Source: Octopus vulgaris (lineage: Eukaryota). Taken from it: DNA of 64,000 nt. The position numbers were made by a program, and so were the translations under genes. Under the pieces are notes generated by a model. The model was not told where the DNA came from. It was given only the letters and a program-made list of their open reading frames with translations, and did not search any database. Of this stretch, positions 8,558-51,865 are shown piece by piece (within the stretch, counting starts at the first letter, position 1; the number at the start of each line of letters is the position of its first letter). The stretch spans positions 28,706,001 through 28,770,000 of the forward strand of contig OX597827.1 of assembly GCA_951406725.2 (NCBI GenBank). Reading direction: 5' to 3'.

Positions 8558-8965
8558 GGCGGCGAGCTGGCAGAAACGTTAACACGTCAGGCGAAATGCT
8601 TAGAGGTATTTCGTCTGCCGCTACGTTATGAGTTCAAATTCCGCCGATGTCGATTTTGCTTTTCATCTTTTCGGGGTCGATTAAATAAGTACCAGTTACG
8701 CACTGGGGTCGATATAATCGACTTAATCCCTTTCTCTGTCCTTGTTTGTCCCTTCTATGTTTAGTTTTTGTGGGTAATAAAGAAATAGGTATTTCGTCTG
8801 CCGTTATGTTCTGAGTTTAAATTCCGCCGAGGTCGACTTTGCCTTTCATCCTTTCGGGGTCGATTAAATAAGTACCACTGGGGTTGATATAATCGACTGA
8901 ATTCGTTTGTTTGTCCTTGTTTATCCCCTCTGTTTGTAGCCCCTTGAGGGCAGTAATAAAAATAA
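8558..8965 (+). mobile_element. SINE family 2, tandem dimer with Tx1-like tails
   Basis: Head GGCGGCGAGCTGGCAGAA, B box GAGTTCAAATTCC, body GC(C)TTTCATC(C/T)TTTCGGGGTCGA; second unit restarts at GGTATTTCG (8788). Confidence 0.85.
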
Positions 8966-9390
8966 GAACGTGAGTATCAATATTGAACACGAATAGTCAG
9001 TTTGATGCACGTGAGACAAACAGAACGGAGGTGTCGTTATCAGCGGATGTGGGTGGCTTGAAAAGTAGCGGGGTGCATCCCTTTTATATATTTTAGCCTC
9101 TTACTATGACACATATTGCATTTCATCCTTTCGGGGTCGTTAAAGTAAGTACCAGTTGGGCATTGGAGGCGTTGCAATAGACTTAACCTACGCCCCCCTC
9201 CCGAAATTACTAGTCTGGGACCTAAATTTTAAACCAATATTTGTTTCAGCTCTCAAATACTAATGAGGTCAACCTTGTCTTTGTTTTCCTTTTGGAATCG
9301 ATAAAACAGAATCGATAAAACCTGTCAAGTACAACAATCAATTTTATCGTCTGCCCCACCTCGTTGAATATTTCTGAATCTTTTACTTAA

Positions 9391-28353: not shown

Positions 28354-28748
28354 TCTACTCTAGGCAAAAGGCCTTGAAAATGTTGGGGAAGGGGGCTAGT
28401 CGACTATATCGACACCAATACGTAACTGGTGCTTATTTCCTCGAACCCGAAAGGATGAAAGGCAAAGTCGACCTCGCCGGAAATTGAACTCAGAACGTAA
28501 AGACAAACGAAATATCTATTTCTTCACTACCCACAAGGGGCTACACACAGAGAGGACAAACAAGGACAGACAAACGGATTAAGTCGATTATATCGACCCC
28601 AGTGCGTAACTGGTACTTATTTAATCGATCCCGAAAGGATGAAAGGCAAAGTCGACATCGGCGGAATTTGAACATAGAACGTAGCGGCAGACGAAATACC
28701 GCTAAGCATTTCGTCCGGCGTGCTTACATTTCTGCTAGCTGGCCGCCT
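28335..28748 (-). mobile_element. SINE family 2 composite: Tx1-tailed unit (28517-28748) joined to an alternative-tail unit
   Basis: Minus-strand junction AAGAAATA|GATATTTCG. Confidence 0.85.
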
Positions 28749-37805: not shown

Positions 37806-38217
37806 CATCTTTGTGTTATGAAGGGAAAATAAGTATTTGTCATTTTTGAAACGCTTCTCATGAGAGATCCATAAACGCTTCTCATGAGAGATCCATAACA
37901 ACAGCACAAAGAAGAATAAAAACGAAGGATTTCAAATATTGCTTCGGGAATTGTCATCCAACCACGTACATGCCAATTTGTTCATTGTTGAAGTTTTCCT
38001 CCAAGGTGTTCCAGAGTAAAGGAGTCTAATAAAAATATATTCTTGTTATAGAGCGTTATTAAATCCACGTTCCGCTATTAATTTACAAACGTGAAGTTTC
38101 ATAACTATCTTTCTTTCTTTCTTTTTTTTCTCCCTAAAAAGAAACGCTCTACTTTGTAATTTGTCCCCATTGTGTTCAGCTCTGTGTGGCTAATAAAGAA
38201 ACATATCTCTGTCTCTG

Positions 38218-41797: not shown

Positions 41798-41850
41798 TAT
41801 TCTTTTACTTGTTTCAGTCATTTGACTGCGGCCATGCTGGAGCACCACCT
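41798..41850 (-). mobile_element. SINE family 3 tail, truncated next to the Helitron 5' end
   Basis: TATTCTTTTACTTGTTTCAGTCATTTGACTGCGGCCATGCTGGAGCACCACCT. Confidence 0.8.
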
Positions 41851-42400
41851 ATAATCTTTATATATATAAAACTGAGAATGTGTGTCTGTCTGCCTGTCTG
41901 TCTGTTTGTTTCCCTAAAACTTGAGAACTACACAACCAATTTCATTCAAAATTTACACATGCCTTACTTAGGGTCCATGTATTTTCATGGGCAAAATAAT
42001 GCTCAACTTCTTCCTAGGGCGAGCCCATAGCAATATCATATCTTCTCCACTATATCAGTATTACGTGTTAAAAGTGAAACAAAAACATTTCTCTATTTTA
42101 TGTCAGATATTTCACTTAAACAATAAAAATAATAATAACAATTGAATTATATGTAGTAAGAAATAATTAAAATCAAACCAGAGTATAATATAATCGTAAC
42201 ATAACAAAAGTAAAAATAGCAATTGGTATAAAATTGCATCAATGACTTGAACTTGAATAAGTGGTTTCACATGAATGGGAATAAATTAAAAATAAAATTA
42301 GCGTGCAGAAATGGAATAGTCTAGATGGATAATAAAATAAATCAAAGAAAAGACTATTGTCTATAAAGTATACAATGTAGAGAAAATAGAAGATTTGAGC

Positions 42401-44327
42401 ACATGGCGGAACGCAAAGAGTGTGTTGGTTAGTTATTTTGCATGTGAAAATTTGGAAAAAAACTGTTAAAAAATTGTCAAAAATTGAATCGCTTGAGGCG
42501 TTTGCCGCTGCGTGTTTGAACCTTTTATAGAAGGTGTGTCGACCCTCAAGTCATGGAGACTTACGCGGGGGTCGCCACAATAAAAAGTGACGAGTCTCTT
42601 AGAATAAGAGAAGTGTTCTTTAGAAAAGAACAATTGAAGGAATACGAGAAGTTCGTCAAAAGGGAGGGTGACAGCGTGAAGCTGGTCCCACCTGTTGAAA
42701 CAATAGAGGAGAGAAATAACAAGACGATAACGTATAGAACGCAAGATAGAAACACGAGAAAACTGGTGAGAGTGACGATTGAAGAAATAGAGAAATGTCT
42801 GGGGGACATCATGAAAAAAGCGACTTTTGTAGACAGAGGAAAGAAATATGGTACGGTGGAGGTGAGATGCGCAACAAAGGAAGTGGCGGCCTCATTGGCT
42901 TCCACTGTCCTGAAAGCCGAAAATTTCACTATGTGGCCGACGTATAAAGGAAGACGAGGGGTACGGGTAAGAGTCCCAAAGGTGCCCCCAGATATTAAAA
43001 CAGAAATGCTGGTAACAGCCATTATTGGAGCAGCAAAGGAGGAAGTAGAAATAGGGTCAATCAAGGAGACGAACGTTGTAAATTGGAAGGGATTCGGAGT
43101 AGAGTTGTGGCTGATGGCCACAATGGAAGACATCGAAAGATTTCCCTTCCAAATAGAAATAGAAAACGAGAAAACAATTAGTGTAATAGTGGAGGGCAGA
43201 AAACCGAATTGCTACCTGTGCGGATCAAGAGGGCACATAAAAGGAATGTCCGCTGTATGAATTCACAGCGGAGCAAAAAGAGACACAAAGTGGAGAGAAG
43301 GAAAACGAACACGAAGGAAAGAACAGCGAAAACAAGGAAAAGGAAATAACGGAGAAACAACAAGAGAAGGGAAGTAACAGCGCACTGAAGGAAAATGAAA
43401 ACAAAGGGAAGAAGATAGTAGAAAAGGAGCAAAATTCACAGGGTGCAGAAGTAGTGGAGAAGGAGCCAAGGCAGAAGCAAGAGAAAGAAAAGGAAAGTAC
43501 ATTAAAGGAAAGAGAAAAAGCAGGAAAAGAACAAGAGAAGGAACAGAACCAAGAGAAAGGAAAAGATGGTATGCAAAAAGGAAAAGAAACAACAGGAAAG
43601 GAACATAAGGCACAGGGTAGAGAGACGGCAGACAAAGAGCCAAAAAGACAAGAGAAGGAAAAAGAAAGAAGAGAAAGCAAAAAGAGAGAAAGAGAGAAAC
43701 CGAGGGAGGAGAAAAAAGAGGAAGTAAGTCCTAAGAGAAAAACTAGAGAAAACGTAGGTGCGAATAGAAAATTCAAATACTATGGAACGTTGATCCATCA
43801 CAGGCACTGTGAGGAGATGGAAGATTTAATAAACGTAACAAATGGATATACGTGGGTCAGGATGGGCACCGAATGGAAAGAAACAGGTGCACTCGTCCAC
43901 GAGAACGACGCTGAGGCGTTCATCGAGGCAGCTGGCAGGAACGTGACAAAACATATGAAATGCCGACTTACAAGGTGGACACGAACGATGGAAATTTACC
44001 ATGATTTGGTAGAGATAATGGAGTATATATAAAAGAAAAGGTATTGTGAAAACTTTAATTTGGAAATGATAAAAAGAACTTTAAATTCTGGAAAAAAAAA
44101 AATGTTGAACTTTGTAAAATTTTTGAAATGTATGTTGAAAATGTGTAAAATGTTTTTATTTGGAAAATATTGTTGACGAATAAAAAACAAATGACGAAAT
44201 GTAACCGCTCGATTTCGGGGATCGAGTGGGCATTACACCACATTGTACAAACTTCATAATTCATTATTCATTTTTCCCCATTGTATTGTCCCATCTATGT
44301 TCGCCCCTAGTGGGTAATAATAAAACA
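42401..44327 (+). mobile_element. ORF1-only non-autonomous Tx1/L1-like element (unit A)
   Basis: Shares the head ACATGG.GGAACGCAAA and the 3' tail with the downstream LINE; encodes only a Gag-like ORF1. Confidence 0.75.
42553..44032 (+). CDS. Gag-like ORF1 protein (CCHC knuckle, long Lys/Glu-rich region); one frameshift near 43243
   Basis: RGKKYGTVEVR and VEGRKPNCYLCGSRGHIK/ECP; a +1 shift joins ORF 42553-43260 to the stop-free frame ending at 44032. Confidence 0.75.
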
Positions 44328-44553
44328 ACATGGAGGAACGCAAATCGCGTGTGTAGTGAGTTATTATATTTTTCCTTAGTGTATATTTTCTCCGTTATAT
44401 TCTACTGTGTGTCTAATTGTCTTTGTTTTTTGTTGTACAACTGTTGAAGTCAACCTTCGTGCGAGGGCTTCGTGTTGGTGTTCCCCCCTCCGTGGGGGAA
44501 AAACTATCATTATTGCGGCTTGTGCCAAGGGCTTGTTAAGCCAGTTGCTCGAG

Positions 44554-45836
44554 ATGGAATCCCCCATCTCATATTCCCCTGTGACTAGTGAAGCAGAATC
44601 ACCGGCGGTGTCGCCAATGAAAAAAGATATTGCAGCTCCAGCGAAAAAATTTTCAGAAGTAGCTGGCAAGAAAATCAAAAAAATAAACGTCGAAGACCTA
44701 AAGAAATATGCGGACTGTGTGACAAAAGAGGGCACGGAAGTGACAGTGGTCACAAACGCCCCAAAACAGGAAGAAATTGCTAAAAGAATAATAATTTATA
44801 AGACCTTTAATGATACAAAAAATTGAGGAAAAAAAAATCGAAAATTGCTTAAAACCAATAATGGATAAGATCACATACATCAATAGAGGAAAGAGATACG
44901 GCACAGTGGAGGTGCGATTCACAACAGAGGAGATAGCTAAAAAAACTATCTATGGAGCCAATAAAAGCGGAGAACATTGTTCTCCTCCCCCTGTATAGAG
45001 GAAAAAGAACATCAAAAATCACCATGAATAATATTCCGCCAGAAGCGGATGCCGAATGTCTGGTGGCAGCAGTTATGGTAGGCCTGGAGGGAAAAATAAA
45101 CATCCTCCAGGCCACAGTAGAGGAAGAAGAATTCTGGAAAGGACAGCGGATAATAATAGCCATCCAGGCAGAAATTCAAACATTGGAGGAGATTCCAGAG
45201 ACTCTAAAAATAAGCGAAGAAGATAGAGTAATAGTTTTCGTAGAGGGCAGAAAGCCGAGGTGCTTCGGCTGCGGCAAGAAGGGGCATGTAAGGGCGAAAT
45301 GCCAACCCCAACCCAAACCGCAGGAAGCAGCTCAGCCAGGTGGAAAAGAAGAAGTGTCACCAGTAGCAGCGTCGGGCGGCCCAGAAGGGACGGCTGAAGG
45401 TGTGGAGGTGACAGAGGCAGCGGAGCCAGCGACGGAGGAAAAAAAGAGCGAGGTAACGAAAAATGAGGAGGGGTGGTCAAAAATTACTAGAAAAAAAAGA
45501 AAAACTGAAACCACCCCTCCCAAAGTGATCATAAAGAAGAAAAGAGAGTCGATGAACTTATTTATGGCCGTTAAGGCATCGAACAACAGACTCGGGAATG
45601 TGTTGGCAGCTATGGCCAAAGTGGAAAAAATAGGAAAAAAAAATGACTATATAGTGTACAGAATAGGCCGGAAGGATTACGGACGGATAAAGTCCGAATT
45701 CTTTCATGACGTGGGCCCGCTCAGAATGGATATAACATCTCCATATATATTCGAGGGCCTGCGTCAGACTCCCCCACGAGGCCCAGAAAAAGAGACAAAC
45801 AAAGAAGAAAAAGAAAAAAACGAACCACTGATATAA
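44554..45836 (+). CDS. ORF1 Gag-like nucleic-acid-binding protein; two frameshifts at A-runs (about 44820 and 44942)
   Basis: RGKRYGTVEVR; VEGRKPRCFGCGKKGHVRAKC (CX2CX4HX4C); homologous to the unit A ORF1. Confidence 0.8.
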
Positions 45837-45844
45837 AGTAAGTA

Positions 45845-48800
45845 ATGGATTACATTTATGTTGGTTGTTTAAATGTGCGCGGCCTGGGATCAGGCTGGAA
45901 GCAAGGTCGCTTCCTGCATGATATCAGGTCGAGTAATTTAGATGTTATTGTTGCTACAGAAACCCGGTTAGAGGGGCCAAGAGGTCTACTCCCGCTGTTT
46001 GACGGCTACGAGAGTTTTTTCTCTCCTGGCAGTCCTACAGGCGGGGGTGGGGTGTTGGTCCTATTAAAAAGAAACCGGGTTTCTGAGAAAAAGTTAATTT
46101 TTGCAGATCCAGAAGGTAGGCTGGTCGTCATGGATTTGACGTTCAGTAACGGTAAAGTTATCAGACTGGTTGCAATTTACGCACCCAACCATAGAGGGCA
46201 AAGTGATTATTTTCGTGAACTGGAAAACTTTCTTGGTACTTCGCATTCATTAGTTGTGCTAGGAGACTTTAACACAATTTGCAAAGCGGATGTAGATTGT
46301 GTTAGCTCGCGTCCAGATAGAAAAGGTAACAGTGGCTTCATGGAACTGCTAAGCCGCTTTGAGCTAGCAGATCCTTATAGGCTGGAATTTCCGAACGCTC
46401 CATTGTGGACATGGTCAAACAGCGACGGATCTTCCAGGTCATATTTAGATAGAATACTAATTAGAAAAGTAGACAGAAATATAGCTAAGTGTCCACAGTT
46501 TTACCTGGTCAGCTACAGTGATCATAAAATGGTCACCTGTAAGCTTGACATAGATAAGGTTAAAAATAGAGGATCCGGTTACTGGAAACTTAATACGTCC
46601 CTTTTGGCGATTAAGGAGTACAAAGACCGGATTAGGACTATAATTCAGAGGGCACTCTCTGGTACCATCATTAATAACAAATGGTGGTACGCCCTCAAAC
46701 GAGCCATCAAATTCGAGTCAATTAGATATAGCATAGGAGTAGTGGCTAGAGAGGCTAGGAGGGAAACTACTCTAGTTAAGGAATTAGAGGAAGCCTTGAA
46801 AACTGGCTCCGCGGCTCAGGTGACGTCCAAGAGACTGGTGTTAAACCAGCACCTCGAGGCCAAACACATGGGCTGCATTGTCAGGGCTAGGATCCGCCAT
46901 ATGGGTTGTGAAGGAATCAACGCCGTGAGATGGGTGGAAGCTCAGCATGGTAACGATGCCACGATTCGATCTTTGACGAACCAACAAGGTGAGTTGATAA
47001 ACGAGCCCGAGGAGATGTGTGAGGCCTTTCAGGAGCACTTCGCTCAGCTTTTCGGTGAGTGCGGCGGACTGGATAGGAGAAGGGCCTTTACGGACCTCCT
47101 CGACGGGCTGCCGCGCTTATCGGGGCGAGATGCGGAGGGCTGTGAAGGGCCAATCACGCCTGGGGAGGTGGTTGAGGCGATGGCGGACTGCGGCGCGGGC
47201 AAGGTGCCGGATTTAGATGGTCTACCCTATGAGTTATATAAGAGTATGCCAGACTTGTTCGGGCACCTACTGGCGGAGGTCTATGCGAACTGGCAGCAGA
47301 ACGGGCTCATACCCAGATCTGTGCGCCGGGGAGTAGTGACACTCGTCAGAAAGGACCCGAGCAAGGGGGAGTGCATTGATAATTTTAGGCCCATCACTCT
47401 GCTAAACACAGAGTTGAAGATTTTGGCCAAAGTGTTATCGAAAAGATTGGCGCGTGTCGCGGATGGTCTGATCGGGGAGGTACAGACATGTGCCGTTCCG
47501 GGCAGAACCATTCAGGATAATCTCCATCTTATGCGGTACACTATAGAGGGGTTTAATAGCGATTCTGGCAAGGGTGGGGCACTGGTCCATTTAGACCAAT
47601 CTAAAGCATTTGATAGGGTCGACCATCGCTACCTGGTATCTGCCCTGGCACAGTTCGGGCTGAGCCTCGGCTTCCTCAGGTGGATTATCCAAATTTACGA
47701 CAACATCGACTCGGTAGTTCGGGTGAACGGCTTCTTGTCGAAGCCGTTCAACGTCAAACGCTCGGTTCGTCAAGGGTGTCCGCTCTCCCCGCTTTTGTAT
47801 GTGATGGCTCTTGAGCCATTACTGCGAAAACTGAGCGGCATCCCGAGACAGCCAGGTAGTGGAAAATCGGTGTCAGCGTACGCGGATATCACCATCATCG
47901 TAACCGAAATGGACCACATACGTAAAGTAGGCAAGGCCATAGAGGTTTACGAGACGGTGACAGGAGCAAAAGTTAATCGCGAAAAGTCAGTCGGCTTGCA
48001 ACTCGGCACCTGGAGAGGCAAGTCGATGCCTCCTGACAGCGTCGTGGGACGTTTGACGGAGGGTCCGATTAAGTTGCTAGGGGTTTGGTTCGGTCCAGAC
48101 CTCCAAATAGAGAAGAATTGGGGCGAGGTATCGAGCAGGGTGGCTGCAGTAACCAAGACCTGGTCTTGGCGGTGGCTATCCCTGAAAGGGAGGGCGGAGG
48201 TAGCCAATGTGTTTATCGCATCGGTTATCACCTACCGCCTTTCCGTCGTTCCTTGCCCTGATTCGTGGTTGATCAAGTTGGAAAGACAGCTCTTCTACTT
48301 CTTGTGGAAGGGCGGGAAACCACTTGTGAAACGCTCTACTTGCTGTCAACAACCGTTAAAGGGTGGGCTAGGGATGCCTTGGCTGATGATGCGCAGACAT
48401 GCGCTGAGGTTAAGACATCTGTGGCTCTACCTGGATGGTGAACGGGTGTGGTCTCCGCTAGCAAAACTGATGTTTCCCAAGTTCACTAGTTTCGGTGGAT
48501 GGGAAACCTGGCTGAATCGTAGATCGAAACTAGGCACATGGTACACGGAGTGTCGCAAGGCTCTCCTGCTATTCCGTCGCTCGTGCAACGCCTGCGGTGG
48601 GGGTTCCACCACATTCTTCTATAGAGGGTTGGTAGAGGCGGAATGTGAAGATACCTTGGGGGAAACCCTAGGTCTCGACGATAATCAGCTGGCCAGTCTG
48701 TTCCGACGTACGTTCGAGCCGAAGACACTGGACAACTTCCAGAAGTCTCTGGCATGGCAATGCTACAGAGGAGCTCTACCTGTTCGGGATAAACTCGCAA

Positions 48801-49228
48801 GGCACGGTGGCCAAGACAATCCAATATGTCCAAGATGCGAGCGGGATAGGGAAACCGTCCCGCACGCTATTGTTCATTGTTCGGACGTGTCTGAGGTGTG
48901 GGTTTATGCCGAACAGCTGTTGTCAAGCACACGAAGAGTACAGCTGTCGACTGAATCGATTACAAAAATTGACCCACCAGATTTCCTCGCGAAAGAAGGT
49001 AAGAATTGTTTTCTCGTAGTAGTAGCAATTGCGAAAGAGGTGATATGGAAGACGAGAATGAAAGGTTTACAGTCAGGCAAGTTCATCTCCAACCCTGGTT
49101 TGATGAATTATTTCATCTTTCACCTGAAAAGGAAGATAGGGCTGGAGAGAATATGCCTGACTAGGAGAGTGTATGAAGAACGATGGAAAAATGTAGCACG
49201 AAAGTTGCGAATGGATGTTACCACATAA
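45845..49228 (+). CDS. ORF2: APE endonuclease, reverse transcriptase and C-terminal Cys/His domain (Tx1/L1 clade), 1127 aa
   Basis: LNVRGL, ATET, IYAPN, GDFN, SYLDRI, SDH (APE); GYWKLN; FRPITLLN, LDQSKAFDRV, VRQGCPLSPLLY, YADI (RT); CPRC...ET..H..VHC. Confidence 0.95.
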   Translation: MDYIYVGCLNVRGLGSGWKQGRFLHDIRSSNLDVIVATETRLEGPRGLLPLFDGYESFFSPGSPTGGGGVLVLLKRNRVSEKKLIFADPEGRLVVMDLTFSNGKVIRLVAIYAPNHRGQSDYFRELENFLGTSHSLVVLGDFNTICKADVDCVSSRPDRKGNSGFMELLSRFELADPYRLEFPNAPLWTWSNSDGSSRSYLDRILIRKVDRNIAKCPQFYLVSYSDHKMVTCKLDIDKVKNRGSGYWKLNTSLLAIKEYKDRIRTIIQRALSGTIINNKWWYALKRAIKFESIRYSIGVVAREARRETTLVKELEEALKTGSAAQVTSKRLVLNQHLEAKHMGCIVRARIRHMGCEGINAVRWVEAQHGNDATIRSLTNQQGELINEPEEMCEAFQEHFAQLFGECGGLDRRRAFTDLLDGLPRLSGRDAEGCEGPITPGEVVEAMADCGAGKVPDLDGLPYELYKSMPDLFGHLLAEVYANWQQNGLIPRSVRRGVVTLVRKDPSKGECIDNFRPITLLNTELKILAKVLSKRLARVADGLIGEVQTCAVPGRTIQDNLHLMRYTIEGFNSDSGKGGALVHLDQSKAFDRVDHRYLVSALAQFGLSLGFLRWIIQIYDNIDSVVRVNGFLSKPFNVKRSVRQGCPLSPLLYVMALEPLLRKLSGIPRQPGSGKSVSAYADITIIVTEMDHIRKVGKAIEVYETVTGAKVNREKSVGLQLGTWRGKSMPPDSVVGRLTEGPIKLLGVWFGPDLQIEKNWGEVSSRVAAVTKTWSWRWLSLKGRAEVANVFIASVITYRLSVVPCPDSWLIKLERQLFYFLWKGGKPLVKRSTCCQQPLKGGLGMPWLMMRRHALRLRHLWLYLDGERVWSPLAKLMFPKFTSFGGWETWLNRRSKLGTWYTECRKALLLFRRSCNACGGGSTTFFYRGLVEAECEDTLGETLGLDDNQLASLFRRTFEPKTLDNFQKSLAWQCYRGALPVRDKLARHGGQDNPICPRCERDRETVPHAIVHCSDVSEVWVYAEQLLSSTRRVQLSTESITKIDPPDFLAKEGKNCFLVVVAIAKEVIWKTRMKGLQSGKFISNPGLMNYFIFHLKRKIGLERICLTRRVYEERWKNVARKLRMDVTT

Positions 49229-49470
49229 ATGTAAAACCGGACGAAACCAAAGTATCAGTGGGGAGACGGGGCTCGTGGGGTCCGAGCTAAACCCGCTCCC
49301 ACTCCATCCGTAATGTCTTCCGGTCTGTTCTCCATTCGATTTTTTATATTTTGTAATTTTTTGTAAATTTTTAAAATTCGCTTTGTTGTAAAACCCATTC
49401 GTGTATCTGACCCCATCATCAGATTGTATTGTCCCATCTATGTTCGCCCCTTGTGGGTAATAATAAAACA

Positions 49471-49790
49471 ACATGGAGGAAAGCACCTTCGAAAAGTGTC
49501 TTTGTGCGACTATGAAAGATATCTAATCAGAGGCGGTAAAGTCGCCACAATAGAAGCAAGGTTCGAGTCAACGGAGCGTGCAAGGGAGTATTCGACTCGA
49601 ACTTGCAAAGTGGAATTATATTTTACTTTTCCCTTTATATCTGGGACGTAGGACGTCCGGAAAAAAATTTTTAATGCATCCCCCCACCCCAGAAGTAGAG
49701 GTAGGCTGTATTGTAGCCACGCTTCTATACAAGAGGGAGGGCAAGATACAATTGATCGAAATTACAAGAGACGGGCTAACAATTCCAGTC
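49471..49790 (+). pseudogene. Third Tx1-like unit (C): head motif plus a deleted, frameshifted ORF1 fragment
   Basis: ACATGGAGGAAAGCA head; IRGGKVATIEARF...LLFPLYLGRRTS...PEVEVGCIVATLL..EGKIQL aligns with ORF1 of units A and B. Confidence 0.7.
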
Positions 49791-50149
49791 TGTTATATAT
49801 TTTGAGTATTGTTATCACTAGCGATATCAACATATAACTTTGTATTTCGTATTTTATGTGTAGATGTATATATATAGAAGTACATGTAATATGTACACAT
49901 ATATATACACATATATACATGCACTAGCACTATGACCCGGCAAGGCCGGGTCTTTAATGCTAGTATATATATATATATATATCATCGACCGCATATACTC
50001 AATGCTTGTTTTCTTGTTCGTTGGTTCGCTGCGTACATCGCTCTAGAGACGACTCCTGCATAACACTGGATGTTAGAATACCTGAAAGTCATATGCAAGT
50101 GAGACACCATGCTTCCAGTCCCATCCAAGGGTGGTGGATACCGACATTT

Positions 50150-51041: not shown

Positions 51042-51865
51042 GGCGGCGAGCTGGTAGAAACGTTAGCACGCCGGACGAAATGCTTAGCGGCATTTCGTCT
51101 GCCGTTACGTTCTGAGTTCAAATTCTGCCGAGGTCGATTTTGCCTTTCATCCTTTCGGGGCCGATTAAAGAAGTACCAGTTACGCACTAGGGTCGATATA
51201 ATCGACTTAATCCGTTTGTCTGTCCTTGTTCGTCCTCTCTATGTTTAGCCCCGTGTGGGTAGTGAAGAAATAGGTATTTCGTTTGCCGTTACGTTATGAG
51301 TTCAAATTCCTCCGAGGTCAACTTTGCCTTTCATCCTTTTGGGGTTGATAAATTAAGTACCAGTTACGCACTGGGGTCGACGTAATCGACTTAATCCGTT
51401 TGTCTGTCCTTGTTTGTCCTCTCTATCTTTAGCCCCTTGAGGGCAATAAAGAAATAAGAAATGTTAACACGCCGGACAAAATGCTTAGAGTCCGTCTTTA
51501 AGTTTTTGAGTTCAAATTTCACCGAGGTTGACTTTGTCTTTCATCCTTTCGGGGTCGATAAATTAAGTACCAGTTGCGTACTGGGGTAGATTTCATCAAC
51601 TTGTTCACTCCCTTAAAATTTCGGGCCTTGTACCTCGAGCACAAAAGAATATTCATACAGGAAACAAGGTGGTGAGGTGGTAGAATTGTTAACACGCCAG
51701 AGTCCGTCTTTAAGTTCTGAGTTCAAATTCCACTGAGATCGACATTGTCTTTTGTCCTTTCAAGGTCGATAAAATAAGTACCAGTTTATACATGGGTCGA
51801 TGTAATCGATTAGCCTCCCCTCTGGACCTTGCTGGACTTGTGCCAAAAAAATTTGAAATCGATAT
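51042..51865 (+). mobile_element. SINE family 2 cluster: two Tx1-tailed units, one alternative-tail unit, then a fourth copy
   Basis: Units start at 51042, 51273, 51458 and about 51668. Confidence 0.85.

What the first reader, a model, noticed from the sequence alone, without database searches (positions are those of the whole stretch)
42401..49790. Three divergent Tx1-like units joined head-to-tail through a conserved 63-bp junction
Seen: 44280-44342 and 49423-49485 are identical at 61/63 nt (3' tail plus ACATGGAGGAA.GCA head), and unit A also starts ACATGGCGGAACGCAAA. The three ORF1 sequences are clearly diverged paralogues, so this is not a tandem duplication. Known: Tx1-clade endonucleases are often sequence-specific, and Drosophila HeT-A/TART form similar mixed arrays. 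Inference: these elements insert immediately upstream of the conserved head of relatives (self-targeting), or are built by template jumping.
Basis: partly seen in the sequence, partly recalled or inferred. Interest (0 to 1): 0.8.

Follow-up and report, generated by a model that had tools for sequence, protein, structure and literature searches.

The report
Two retrotransposons stacked inside a Helitron
In what is likely an octopus genome, two related LINE retrotransposons, one with both genes and one with only its first gene, sit one behind the other at a single spot inside a very abundant, Helitron-like DNA repeat, likely because they inserted there in turn and copied the short target each time, and the tail they share also ends an abundant short repeat that they likely mobilise.

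Summary
The 63-bp match is real (61/63), but this is not three units. 'Unit C' is the right half of a high-copy, Helitron-like repeat whose left half lies upstream of unit A. Contigs from 4 of 4 runs join the two halves without the 7-kb insert, and both flanks are 17-127 times deeper than A. The repeat carries an ORF1 fossil that the insert splits at profile position 68. The insert is A (1.9 kb, ORF1 only) plus B (5.1 kb, ORF1 + APE-RT-zinc-finger ORF2). The junction is a 48-nt 3' tail shared by A and B, plus an 11-15-nt motif present three times and present in the empty site, so likely a target-site duplication. The tail also resembles the ends of five SINE-like copies in the window. Best reading: sequential insertion at one site, as known for Tx1-Mar/SINEU-3 in Mariner and for R1 dimers. 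Family-wide targeting is not shown, and an element-encoded head is not excluded. My searches found no report of a Helitron target or an ORF1-only Tx1-like family; SINEs with L1-clade tails are rare. New variant of a known kind; interest 0.45.

The parts
41855..42400 (+). Left arm of a high-copy, non-autonomous Helitron-like host repeat (starts TC after an A)
   Evidence: sequence; depth 21-127x that of A in 4 runs; joined to the right arm in empty copies
42305..42400 (+). Left part of an ORF1 fossil carried by the host repeat (profile positions 37-68)
   Evidence: 7.3-9.0 bits, 0 of 300 shuffles reach 9.0 (top 8.3); P0077 and P0100 hit both flanks collinearly
42401..42411 (+). Copy 1 of the 11-nt motif (ACATGGCGGAA; 15 nt if CGCA is included); likely target-site duplication
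   Evidence: inference from the empty site
42412..44327 (+). Element A: ORF1-only (HAL1-like) non-autonomous element
   Evidence: covered along its length in 4 of 4 runs
42553..44032 (+). ORF1 of A, about 490 aa, CCHC knuckle, one frameshift near 43238
   Evidence: most contig depth lacks this frameshift (table 4)
44280..44327 (+). 3' tail of A, 47 of 48 identical to the tail of B
44328..44338 (+). Copy 2 of the motif (ACATGGAGGAA), between A and B
44339..49470 (+). Element B: full-length two-ORF L1/Tx1-group LINE, decayed copy
44554..45836 (+). ORF1 of B, at least two frameshifts, CCHC knuckle
   Evidence: 79-92% identical over 121-138 aa to named Octopus proteins
45845..49228 (+). ORF2 of B, 1127 aa: APE endonuclease, reverse transcriptase, C-terminal zinc finger; RT motif reads YADI, one Asp short
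   Evidence: [YF]ADD in 38 of 50 homologues
49423..49470 (+). 3' tail of B, ending TAATAATAAAACA; similar to SINE-like tails
49471..49481 (+). Copy 3 of the motif, belonging to the host repeat (the original target)
   Evidence: joints and loose end
49471..49772 (+). 'Unit C': right part of the ORF1 fossil (profile positions 68-168), frameshifted
49471..49963 (+). Right arm of the Helitron-like host repeat
49934..49963 (+). Helitron-type 3' end: 8-bp GC-rich hairpin (49934-49952), 7-nt spacer, CTAG (49960-49963), then T
   Evidence: z -4.47, 0 of 200 shuffles; only such structure in the window
51042..51460 (+). One of several SINE-like repeats whose 3' tails resemble the A/B tail (tails also near 8742, 8917 and, on the minus strand, 28563)

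Best explanation
A full-length L1/Tx1-group LINE (B) and an ORF1-only relative (A) sit in tandem at one site inside a high-copy Helitron-like repeat, and they likely inserted there one after the other, each insertion likely duplicating the 11-15-nt target ACATGGAGGAA(AGCA). Shown: the two-element anatomy, the split host repeat, the empty site in other copies, the motif in three copies, and the shared tail. Inferred steps: (1) the host repeat took up a piece of an old Tx1-like ORF1 and spread it to very many copies; (2) a B-family endonuclease nicked the bottom strand at …TTTGAAC/ACATGG… and reverse transcription started on the RNA's 3' end, possibly helped by ACA microhomology; (3) a second nick 11-15 nt downstream duplicated the target and rebuilt the full site at the element's 5' junction; (4) A, which cannot move itself, was recognised through the same 48-nt tail and went into the rebuilt site, pushing B to the right. 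The 63-bp 'junction' is therefore tail plus target copy. The same tail recognition likely also mobilises the abundant SINE-like repeat. Confidence in the nested anatomy alone is about 0.93; the figure given is for the whole mechanism.
For: Empty site: 4 of the 15 joints shown link 42386/42390 to 49470/49471/49474, and each of 4 runs (4 studies, 3 organism labels) holds at least two of these; a 29-contig loose end before 49474 reads like the left flank. Flanks are 17-127x deeper than A. ORF1 profile built from 150 database hits: left flank 37-68, right flank 68-168. Helitron-type ends. Motif only at the three boundaries. A and B share 5' sequence after the 11-mer (score 27, vs 11 and 8 against the host). 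Tail matches five SINE-like tails, 0 of 2000 shuffles each. A looks younger than B: long contigs differ from A at 0 of 261 and 6 of 480 letters, from B's 5' part at 27 of 263 and 17 (+15 gaps) of 282 (table 8). Precedent: tandem SINEU-3 copies sandwiching a TSD in Mariner-N4_AMi (PMC4494074); R1 tandems separated by 33-nt TSDs (PMC5932611).
Against: One locus only; no genome was held, so flanks of other A or B copies were not tabulated. No listed contig spans the block, and 473 joints and 5192 loose ends were not shown. The joints have sides of 19-37 letters at 85% likeness, which the tool flags as repeat-prone. Motif copies 1 and 2 share C at position 12 where the host has A, and copy 1 has a further difference, which fits an element-encoded head as well. 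The tail ends ACA and is followed by ACATGG, so the exact boundary is unsure. A second joint, tail to 49778, in 4 of 4 runs puts a tail next to host sequence without ACATGG, so any specificity is not strict for this motif. The age order is weak: other long contigs differ from A at 38 of 270, 50 of 362 and 30 of 238 letters. The tail stem shows no covariation (0 of 6 pairs changed on both sides).
Confidence: 0.6

Rival explanations
1. The motif is the elements' own 5' end (it looks like a YY1/ETS-type core promoter; recalled, not tested), the endonuclease homes to that head, and the ORF1 fossil in the Helitron-like repeat happens to mimic it.
For: Copies 1 and 2 agree with each other (CGCA) against the host (AGCA), B's head matches the host at 14 of 15, and A and B stay alike for about 38 nt.
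Against: Needs a chance 14-of-15 mimic, whereas a duplication needs none. No tail-to-A-head or B-to-B joint is among the 15 best joints shown (473 hidden), and the tail-to-49778 joint has no head motif.
Confidence: 0.15
2. A and B arrived in one event: the reverse transcriptase finished B and jumped to the 3' tail of an A RNA (template jump), or copied an A-B read-through RNA.
For: Identical tail ends and identical spacing at both junctions; both RNAs would bind the same enzyme through the same tail.
Against: The middle motif must then be B's own head and match the host target by chance. B's copy carries more lesions than A's, which suggests different ages.
Confidence: 0.12
3. No family-wide targeting: one chance insertion into an abundant repeat, a second drawn in by the first, and any further copies spread by hitchhiking with the rolling-circle element.
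For: Helitrons make up about 1% of the O. vulgaris assembly (PMC13282606 supplement row), so one hit is not rare. Only one locus was seen.
Against: Does not explain by itself why the second element used the same nucleotide; a tail-to-host joint at a second place occurs in 4 of 4 runs.
Confidence: 0.08
4. Assembly chimera joined through the 63-bp repeat, or a true three-unit head-to-tail array as first proposed.
For: No listed contig spans the whole block.
Against: The longest identical run in the repeat is 29 nt and the window has no N. Both outer flanks rebuild one host repeat at the right nucleotide, which a mis-join would not do, and C continues the left flank.
Confidence: 0.05

Closest known systems
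Tx1-Mar and SINEU-3 in Mariner-N4_AMi, crocodilians (PMC4494074; passages and section 15 read)
   Same: Tx1 elements and a non-autonomous partner prefer an abundant non-autonomous DNA transposon; tandem copies sandwich a 16-bp TSD by sequential insertion.
   Different: Here the host is Helitron-like, the site lies in an ORF1 fossil, and the partner is an ORF1-only element with an almost identical tail. Preference was measured there (90% for SINEU-3) and is not measured here.
Xenopus Tx1L in Tx1D (PMC1950540, PMC4494074; passages)
   Same: APE-RT element at a fixed site within a DNA transposon.
   Different: Tx1L endonuclease specificity is shown biochemically; untested here. Relationship of B to Tx1L was not tested by phylogeny.
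Drosophila R1 tandem dimers (PMC5932611; passages)
   Same: Double insertion at one site leaves a target copy between the elements.
   Different: R1 targets rDNA and the tandems described are of one family; here two different elements, about 31% identical in ORF1.
HAL1, half-L1 (PMC5753468; passage; the original paper was not held)
   Same: Non-autonomous L1 derivative encoding only ORF1.
   Different: Described from mammals; A shares a defined 48-nt non-poly(A) tail with its partner.
Stringent SINE/LINE tail pairs (PMC3472496, PMC3747384; passages)
   Same: SINE and LINE share the 3'-end sequence.
   Different: Only 3 of 58 SINEs in that 2012 survey had L1-clade tails; the examples in the passages I read were from maize/sorghum and a green alga. 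The stem-loop is not supported by covariation here.
HeT-A/TART telomeric arrays (passage in PMC5932611; otherwise recalled)
   Same: ORF1-only and RT-bearing elements head to tail.
   Different: Those add to chromosome ends; this block is internal, inside a split repeat, with a likely target duplication.

Membership tests
L1/Tx1 group of non-LTR retrotransposons | ORF2 with N-terminal APE endonuclease, RT and C-terminal zinc finger | tested here: met
   Pfam PF03372, PF00078, PF13966 above cut-off; endonuclease hits in PDB are all L1 ORF2 or its chimeras, 9 of 9; catalytic motifs present, RT motif one Asp short
L1/Tx1 group of non-LTR retrotransposons | ORF1 upstream with CCHC knuckle; no LTRs; A-rich 3' end | tested here: met
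   CX2CX4HX4C visible; zf-CCHC above cut-off in 5 of 14 ORF1 homologues scanned; only long direct repeat is the 63-mer
Tx1 clade (strict) | RT phylogeny places it with named Tx1 families | tested here: inconclusive
   Tree of 47 rows (B plus 46 of 50 hits) has no named Tx1 reference; B falls in a 9-row clade (97/96) with a fish protein whose ORF1 part has ZCCHC3-type domains; ORF1 profile vs that protein weak, E 0.0004, probability 36%
Tx1 clade (strict) | Target preference: over 20% of flanks in one sequence type (criterion of PMC4494074) | not testable with these tools
   No genome held; one locus with two insertions plus one tail-to-host joint
Non-autonomous Helitron | 5' TC, 3' CTRR, subterminal GC-rich hairpin, insertion between A and T | tested here: met
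Non-autonomous Helitron | Interspersed high copy number | tested here: met
   flank depth 17-127x that of A in 4 of 4 runs; no second copy in this window
Non-autonomous Helitron | Ends shared with an autonomous RepHel-coding element | not testable with these tools
   no genome held
HAL1-like ORF1-only element | ORF1 but no ORF2 in this copy; 3' end shared with an autonomous partner | tested here: met
   0 hits of 50 ORF2 homologues in A; tail 47 of 48
HAL1-like ORF1-only element | Spread as a family in this form, not a single deleted copy | tested here: inconclusive
   A's own 3' UTR is covered in 4 of 4 runs and joined to a tail in one run's listed joint; no listed contig spans ORF1 stop to tail
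Stringent SINE/LINE pair | Shared 3' tail | tested here: met
   77-84% alike over 30-49 nt; 0 of 2000 shuffles for each of 5 tails
Stringent SINE/LINE pair | Conserved stem-loop with compensatory changes | tested here: inconclusive
   6-pair stem 93.8% paired over 8 sequences but no two-sided change, 500 of 500 shuffles reach it; fold z-scores -2.2 to +0.4
Stringent SINE/LINE pair | Partner has a tRNA-derived polymerase III head | tested here: inconclusive
   A- and B-box-like words by eye (consensus recalled); no tRNA hit in ARAGORN or Rfam
HeT-A/TART-type telomeric array | Added at a chromosome end, no split target | tested here: not met
   both flanks are halves of one repeat and 14 kb of other sequence follows

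The most novel reading that the evidence does not exclude
An octopus Tx1-like lineage homes to a short site that mimics its own 5' end, and a rolling-circle transposon that captured an old ORF1 fragment has spread this site as thousands of landing pads. The same enzyme, through one 48-nt tail, moves three kinds of passenger: itself, an ORF1-only half element and the genome's abundant SINE.
Probability: 0.2. Interest if true: 0.7.

Novelty: new variant of a known kind. Interest (0 to 1): 0.45.

Why it matters
If the preference holds family-wide, it adds Helitrons to the list of Tx1 targets and gives a defined substrate for an endonuclease with a new specificity. The shared tail names a candidate engine for an abundant octopus SINE; SINEs are 11.6% of the O. 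vulgaris assembly (PMC13282606), and L1-clade SINE partners were rare in a 2012 survey (3 of 58; PMC3472496). It also gives a likely ORF1-only element outside mammals. Each piece has a known parallel, so a specialist would find it neat and testable, not startling.

Tried and rejected
No whole genome was held. An exact search for the tail in metagenome contigs gave 0 matches; the ORF2 search there gave 1 locus, a 1.3-kb contig at 26% identity, not used. Using spurious peptides across the junctions to read flanks from the protein collection found nothing. Five look-ups of earlier findings returned nothing. No RNA holder was listed on record, so expression is not addressed. Rfam and ARAGORN found no RNA gene in the window, so an snRNA or tRNA target is not supported. 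RNAalifold and pair counts gave no covariation for the tail. The atlas search only repeated the APE-RT-zinc-finger call. A 63-bp TSD around B alone was considered and rejected: 48 nt of it is a tail also found on SINE-like repeats, and the left flank lacks it. Local similarity of the A and B 5' UTRs beyond 15 nt is not significant when unanchored (38 of 500 shuffles); only the anchored comparison is suggestive. Literature searches: Tx1/target/tandem, octopus/Tx1/Helitron (28), HAL1 (31), Tx1/SINE/tail (44), 'inserted into Helitron' (45; 0 occurrences in the 18 listed), octopus SINE (53), ZCCHC3/Tx1 (65), self-targeting (66), the 11-nt motif (73; 20 of 24 listed, none on transposons by title). 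None listed this system. Repbase Reports and subscription papers are not covered, and the O. vulgaris supplement held gave only summary rows for my terms, so curated libraries may already describe these families.
Full report
1. Observation. The two stretches 44280-44342 and 49423-49485 match at 61 of 63 positions (blastn E 6.6e-24), and similarity stops sharply on both sides. The word ACATGG[AC]GGAA occurs three times in the 64-kb window, at 42401, 44328 and 49471. The ORF1-like sequences are diverged: A vs B 36 of 115 aa, C vs B 39% over 59 aa. The window has no N. The match is real and far beyond chance.

2. Host organism. The window is AT-rich and full of microsatellites. Five ORF1 homologues looked up by name are all Octopus proteins, two of them 79% and 92% identical to parts of B's ORF1. 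The genome is therefore likely an octopus; the species was not determined.

3. Element B (44339-49470). ORF1 runs 44554-45836 with at least two frameshifts. ORF2 (45845-49228) is an open 1127-aa frame with APE endonuclease, RT and C-terminal zinc finger, all above Pfam cut-offs. All 9 PDB hits of the endonuclease are L1 ORF2 or its chimeras. The RT motif reads YADI, where 38 of 50 homologues have [YF]ADD, so this copy is probably inactive. A tree of B and 46 of the 50 hits (those aligning over at least 230 aa) has no named Tx1 reference; B groups with two unnamed proteins (100/99) inside a 9-row clade that includes a fish element. 'Tx1-like' is therefore a likely label, not a tested membership.

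4. Element A (42412-44327). It has one gene, an ORF1 of about 490 aa with a frameshift near 43238 that most contig depth lacks (1226 of 1380, 21493 of 31415, 15719 of 24731 and 381 of 617). After the stop come about 250 nt of AT-rich UTR and the tail. None of 50 ORF2 homologues hits A. A is covered along its length in 4 of 4 runs, with some near-identical long contigs (0 differences in 261, 6 in 480) and some diverged ones (38 in 270, 50 in 362). It is likely a multicopy ORF1-only family, like HAL1 (PMC5753468, passage), but no listed contig spans its ORF1 stop to its tail.

5. 'Unit C' is the split target. Its translation starts in mid-ORF1 right at the supposed head. A profile built from 150 database hits, without window sequence, maps the flank left of A to positions 37-68 and C to positions 68-168. 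The left match is weak alone (9.0 bits; 0 of 300 shuffles reach it, top 8.3), but P0077 and P0100 hit both flanks in order. Contigs settle it. Of the 15 joints shown (473 hidden), four link 42386 or 42390 to 49470, 49471 or 49474, and each of 4 runs from 4 studies holds at least two of them. The letters between read TTTGAA or close variants, and a 29-contig loose end before 49474 ends GATTTGAACACC, like the left flank. The two bins on the left flank and the last bin on the right flank are far deeper than the insert: 21-127 times A on the left and 17-89 times on the right. The tool warns that depth is no copy number and that short-sided joints at 85% likeness often come from repeats; here they are read as other copies of the repeat, not as this locus.

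6. The host repeat. Joined, the flanks make a 1039-bp element that starts TC after an A (41855) and ends with an 8-bp GC-rich hairpin, a 7-nt spacer and CTAG before a T (49963). The hairpin folds with z -4.47 and is the only such structure in the window. These are the canonical Helitron ends (recalled). Other joints show variants lacking most or all of the ORF1 fossil (42321 to 49779 in 3 of 4 runs; 42393 to 49775/49776 in 3 of 4), so the fossil is a module present in some subfamilies.

7. What the 63 bp are. The first 48 nt are the 3' tail of A and B (47 of 48 identical). This tail matches the ends of five SINE-like copies elsewhere in the window, 0 of 2000 shuffles each, and contig depth on B's tail reaches 335,506 at 49445 in one run, where a SINE-type extra A is also seen. 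A tail kept almost unchanged between elements 31% identical in ORF1 is best read as the RNA signal for the reverse transcriptase (inference from stringent LINE/SINE pairs; PMC3472496 passages). A 6-pair stem can form in 93.8% of cells, but without covariation, so structure is not shown. The last 11-15 nt belong to the empty target and recur at all three boundaries, as expected for a duplication made twice.

8. Mechanism. Inferred: nick at the ACA boundary, reverse transcription from the tail, second nick 11-15 nt downstream, target rebuilt at the 5' junction, second insertion into the rebuilt site. B first and A second fits the rebuilt-site logic and B's heavier decay, but the order is weakly supported. 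A tail-to-49778 joint in 4 of 4 runs (sides 20-21 letters, 5 letters fitting either side) shows a tail, of LINE or SINE type, next to the same host repeat at a second place that also begins ACA. This hints at a wider preference for this repeat and argues against strict need for ACATGG. It could also be a deletion derivative of one insertion.

9. Against and open. One locus only. No long read spans it. The 5' flanks of other copies were not visible, so I cannot separate a duplicated target from an element-encoded head: copies 1 and 2 share CGCA against the host's AGCA. No tail-to-head joint that goes back appears among the 15 shown, but most joints were hidden. Attempts to reach other loci failed.

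10. Comparison. Tx1 elements are known to prefer other transposons: Tx1L in Tx1D, Tx1-Mar in Mariner-N4_AMi, Tx1-9_AMi in Harbinger, two families in LTR elements; tandem SINEU-3 copies sandwich a TSD (PMC4494074, passages and section 15). Double insertion with a TSD between is general, R1 included (PMC5932611, passages). Tx1L endonuclease specificity is shown in vitro (PMC1950540, passages). O. vulgaris has 80 L1-Tx1 and 84 Helitron families, 13 L1-Tx1 families recently active (PMC13282606, passages and supplement rows). I also read passages of PMC3747384, PMC4758252, PMC10294476 and PMC12988792; none described this pairing. PMC4824008 was seen only in a search listing. Nine searches listed no report of a Helitron-targeting Tx1, an ORF1-only Tx1 family or a Tx1-tailed octopus SINE; Repbase Reports and subscription journals are outside the library.

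11. Verdict. It works like Tx1-Mar with SINEU-3: sequential insertion into a DNA transposon. New are the Helitron-like host, the ORF1-only partner and the tail shared with a SINE-like repeat. New variant of a known kind; interest 0.45; most novel reading 0.2 likely, worth 0.7 if true.

Noticed in passing
window 8558-8968 (+), 28398-28748 (-), 51042-51460 (+): The SINE-like repeat is a partial dimer at three loci, with the same tail-to-internal junction (tail followed by G[G/A]TATTTCG), so likely an internally duplicated subfamily; at 51457-51809 further truncated units follow head to tail.
   Followed up: partly
window 49923-49964: The Helitron-like end is a larger palindrome: ACTAGCA before the hairpin and TGCTAGT after it, so hairpin plus CTAG-T reads on both strands.
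   Followed up: no
window 42321/49779 and 42393/49775: Host-repeat variants lack all or most of the ORF1 fossil; their right breakpoint lies within 3 nt of the tail-to-49778 joint, so this spot may be an older insertion hot spot.
   Followed up: partly
window 38158-38202 (+): A further, more diverged copy of the tail (nhmmer E 0.038) followed by a TC microsatellite, without a recognised body.
   Followed up: no
window 41815-41853: A short piece of another repeat (SINE-like; recalled) lies directly left of the Helitron-like element, which is followed by a TA run on the right.
   Followed up: no
window 44244-44254 and 49387-49397: A and B 3' UTRs share TTGT.AAAC in register about 35 nt before the tail, a hint that the recognised 3' region is longer than 48 nt.
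   Followed up: no
P0088, P0138: Database proteins in which a piece of this ORF1 family is fused to apparently host sequence; may be gene-model artefacts or exonised fragments.
   Followed up: no
window 42401-42430 and 44328-44357: The ATG of the motif opens a short upstream ORF in both A (9 aa) and B (8 aa).
   Followed up: no
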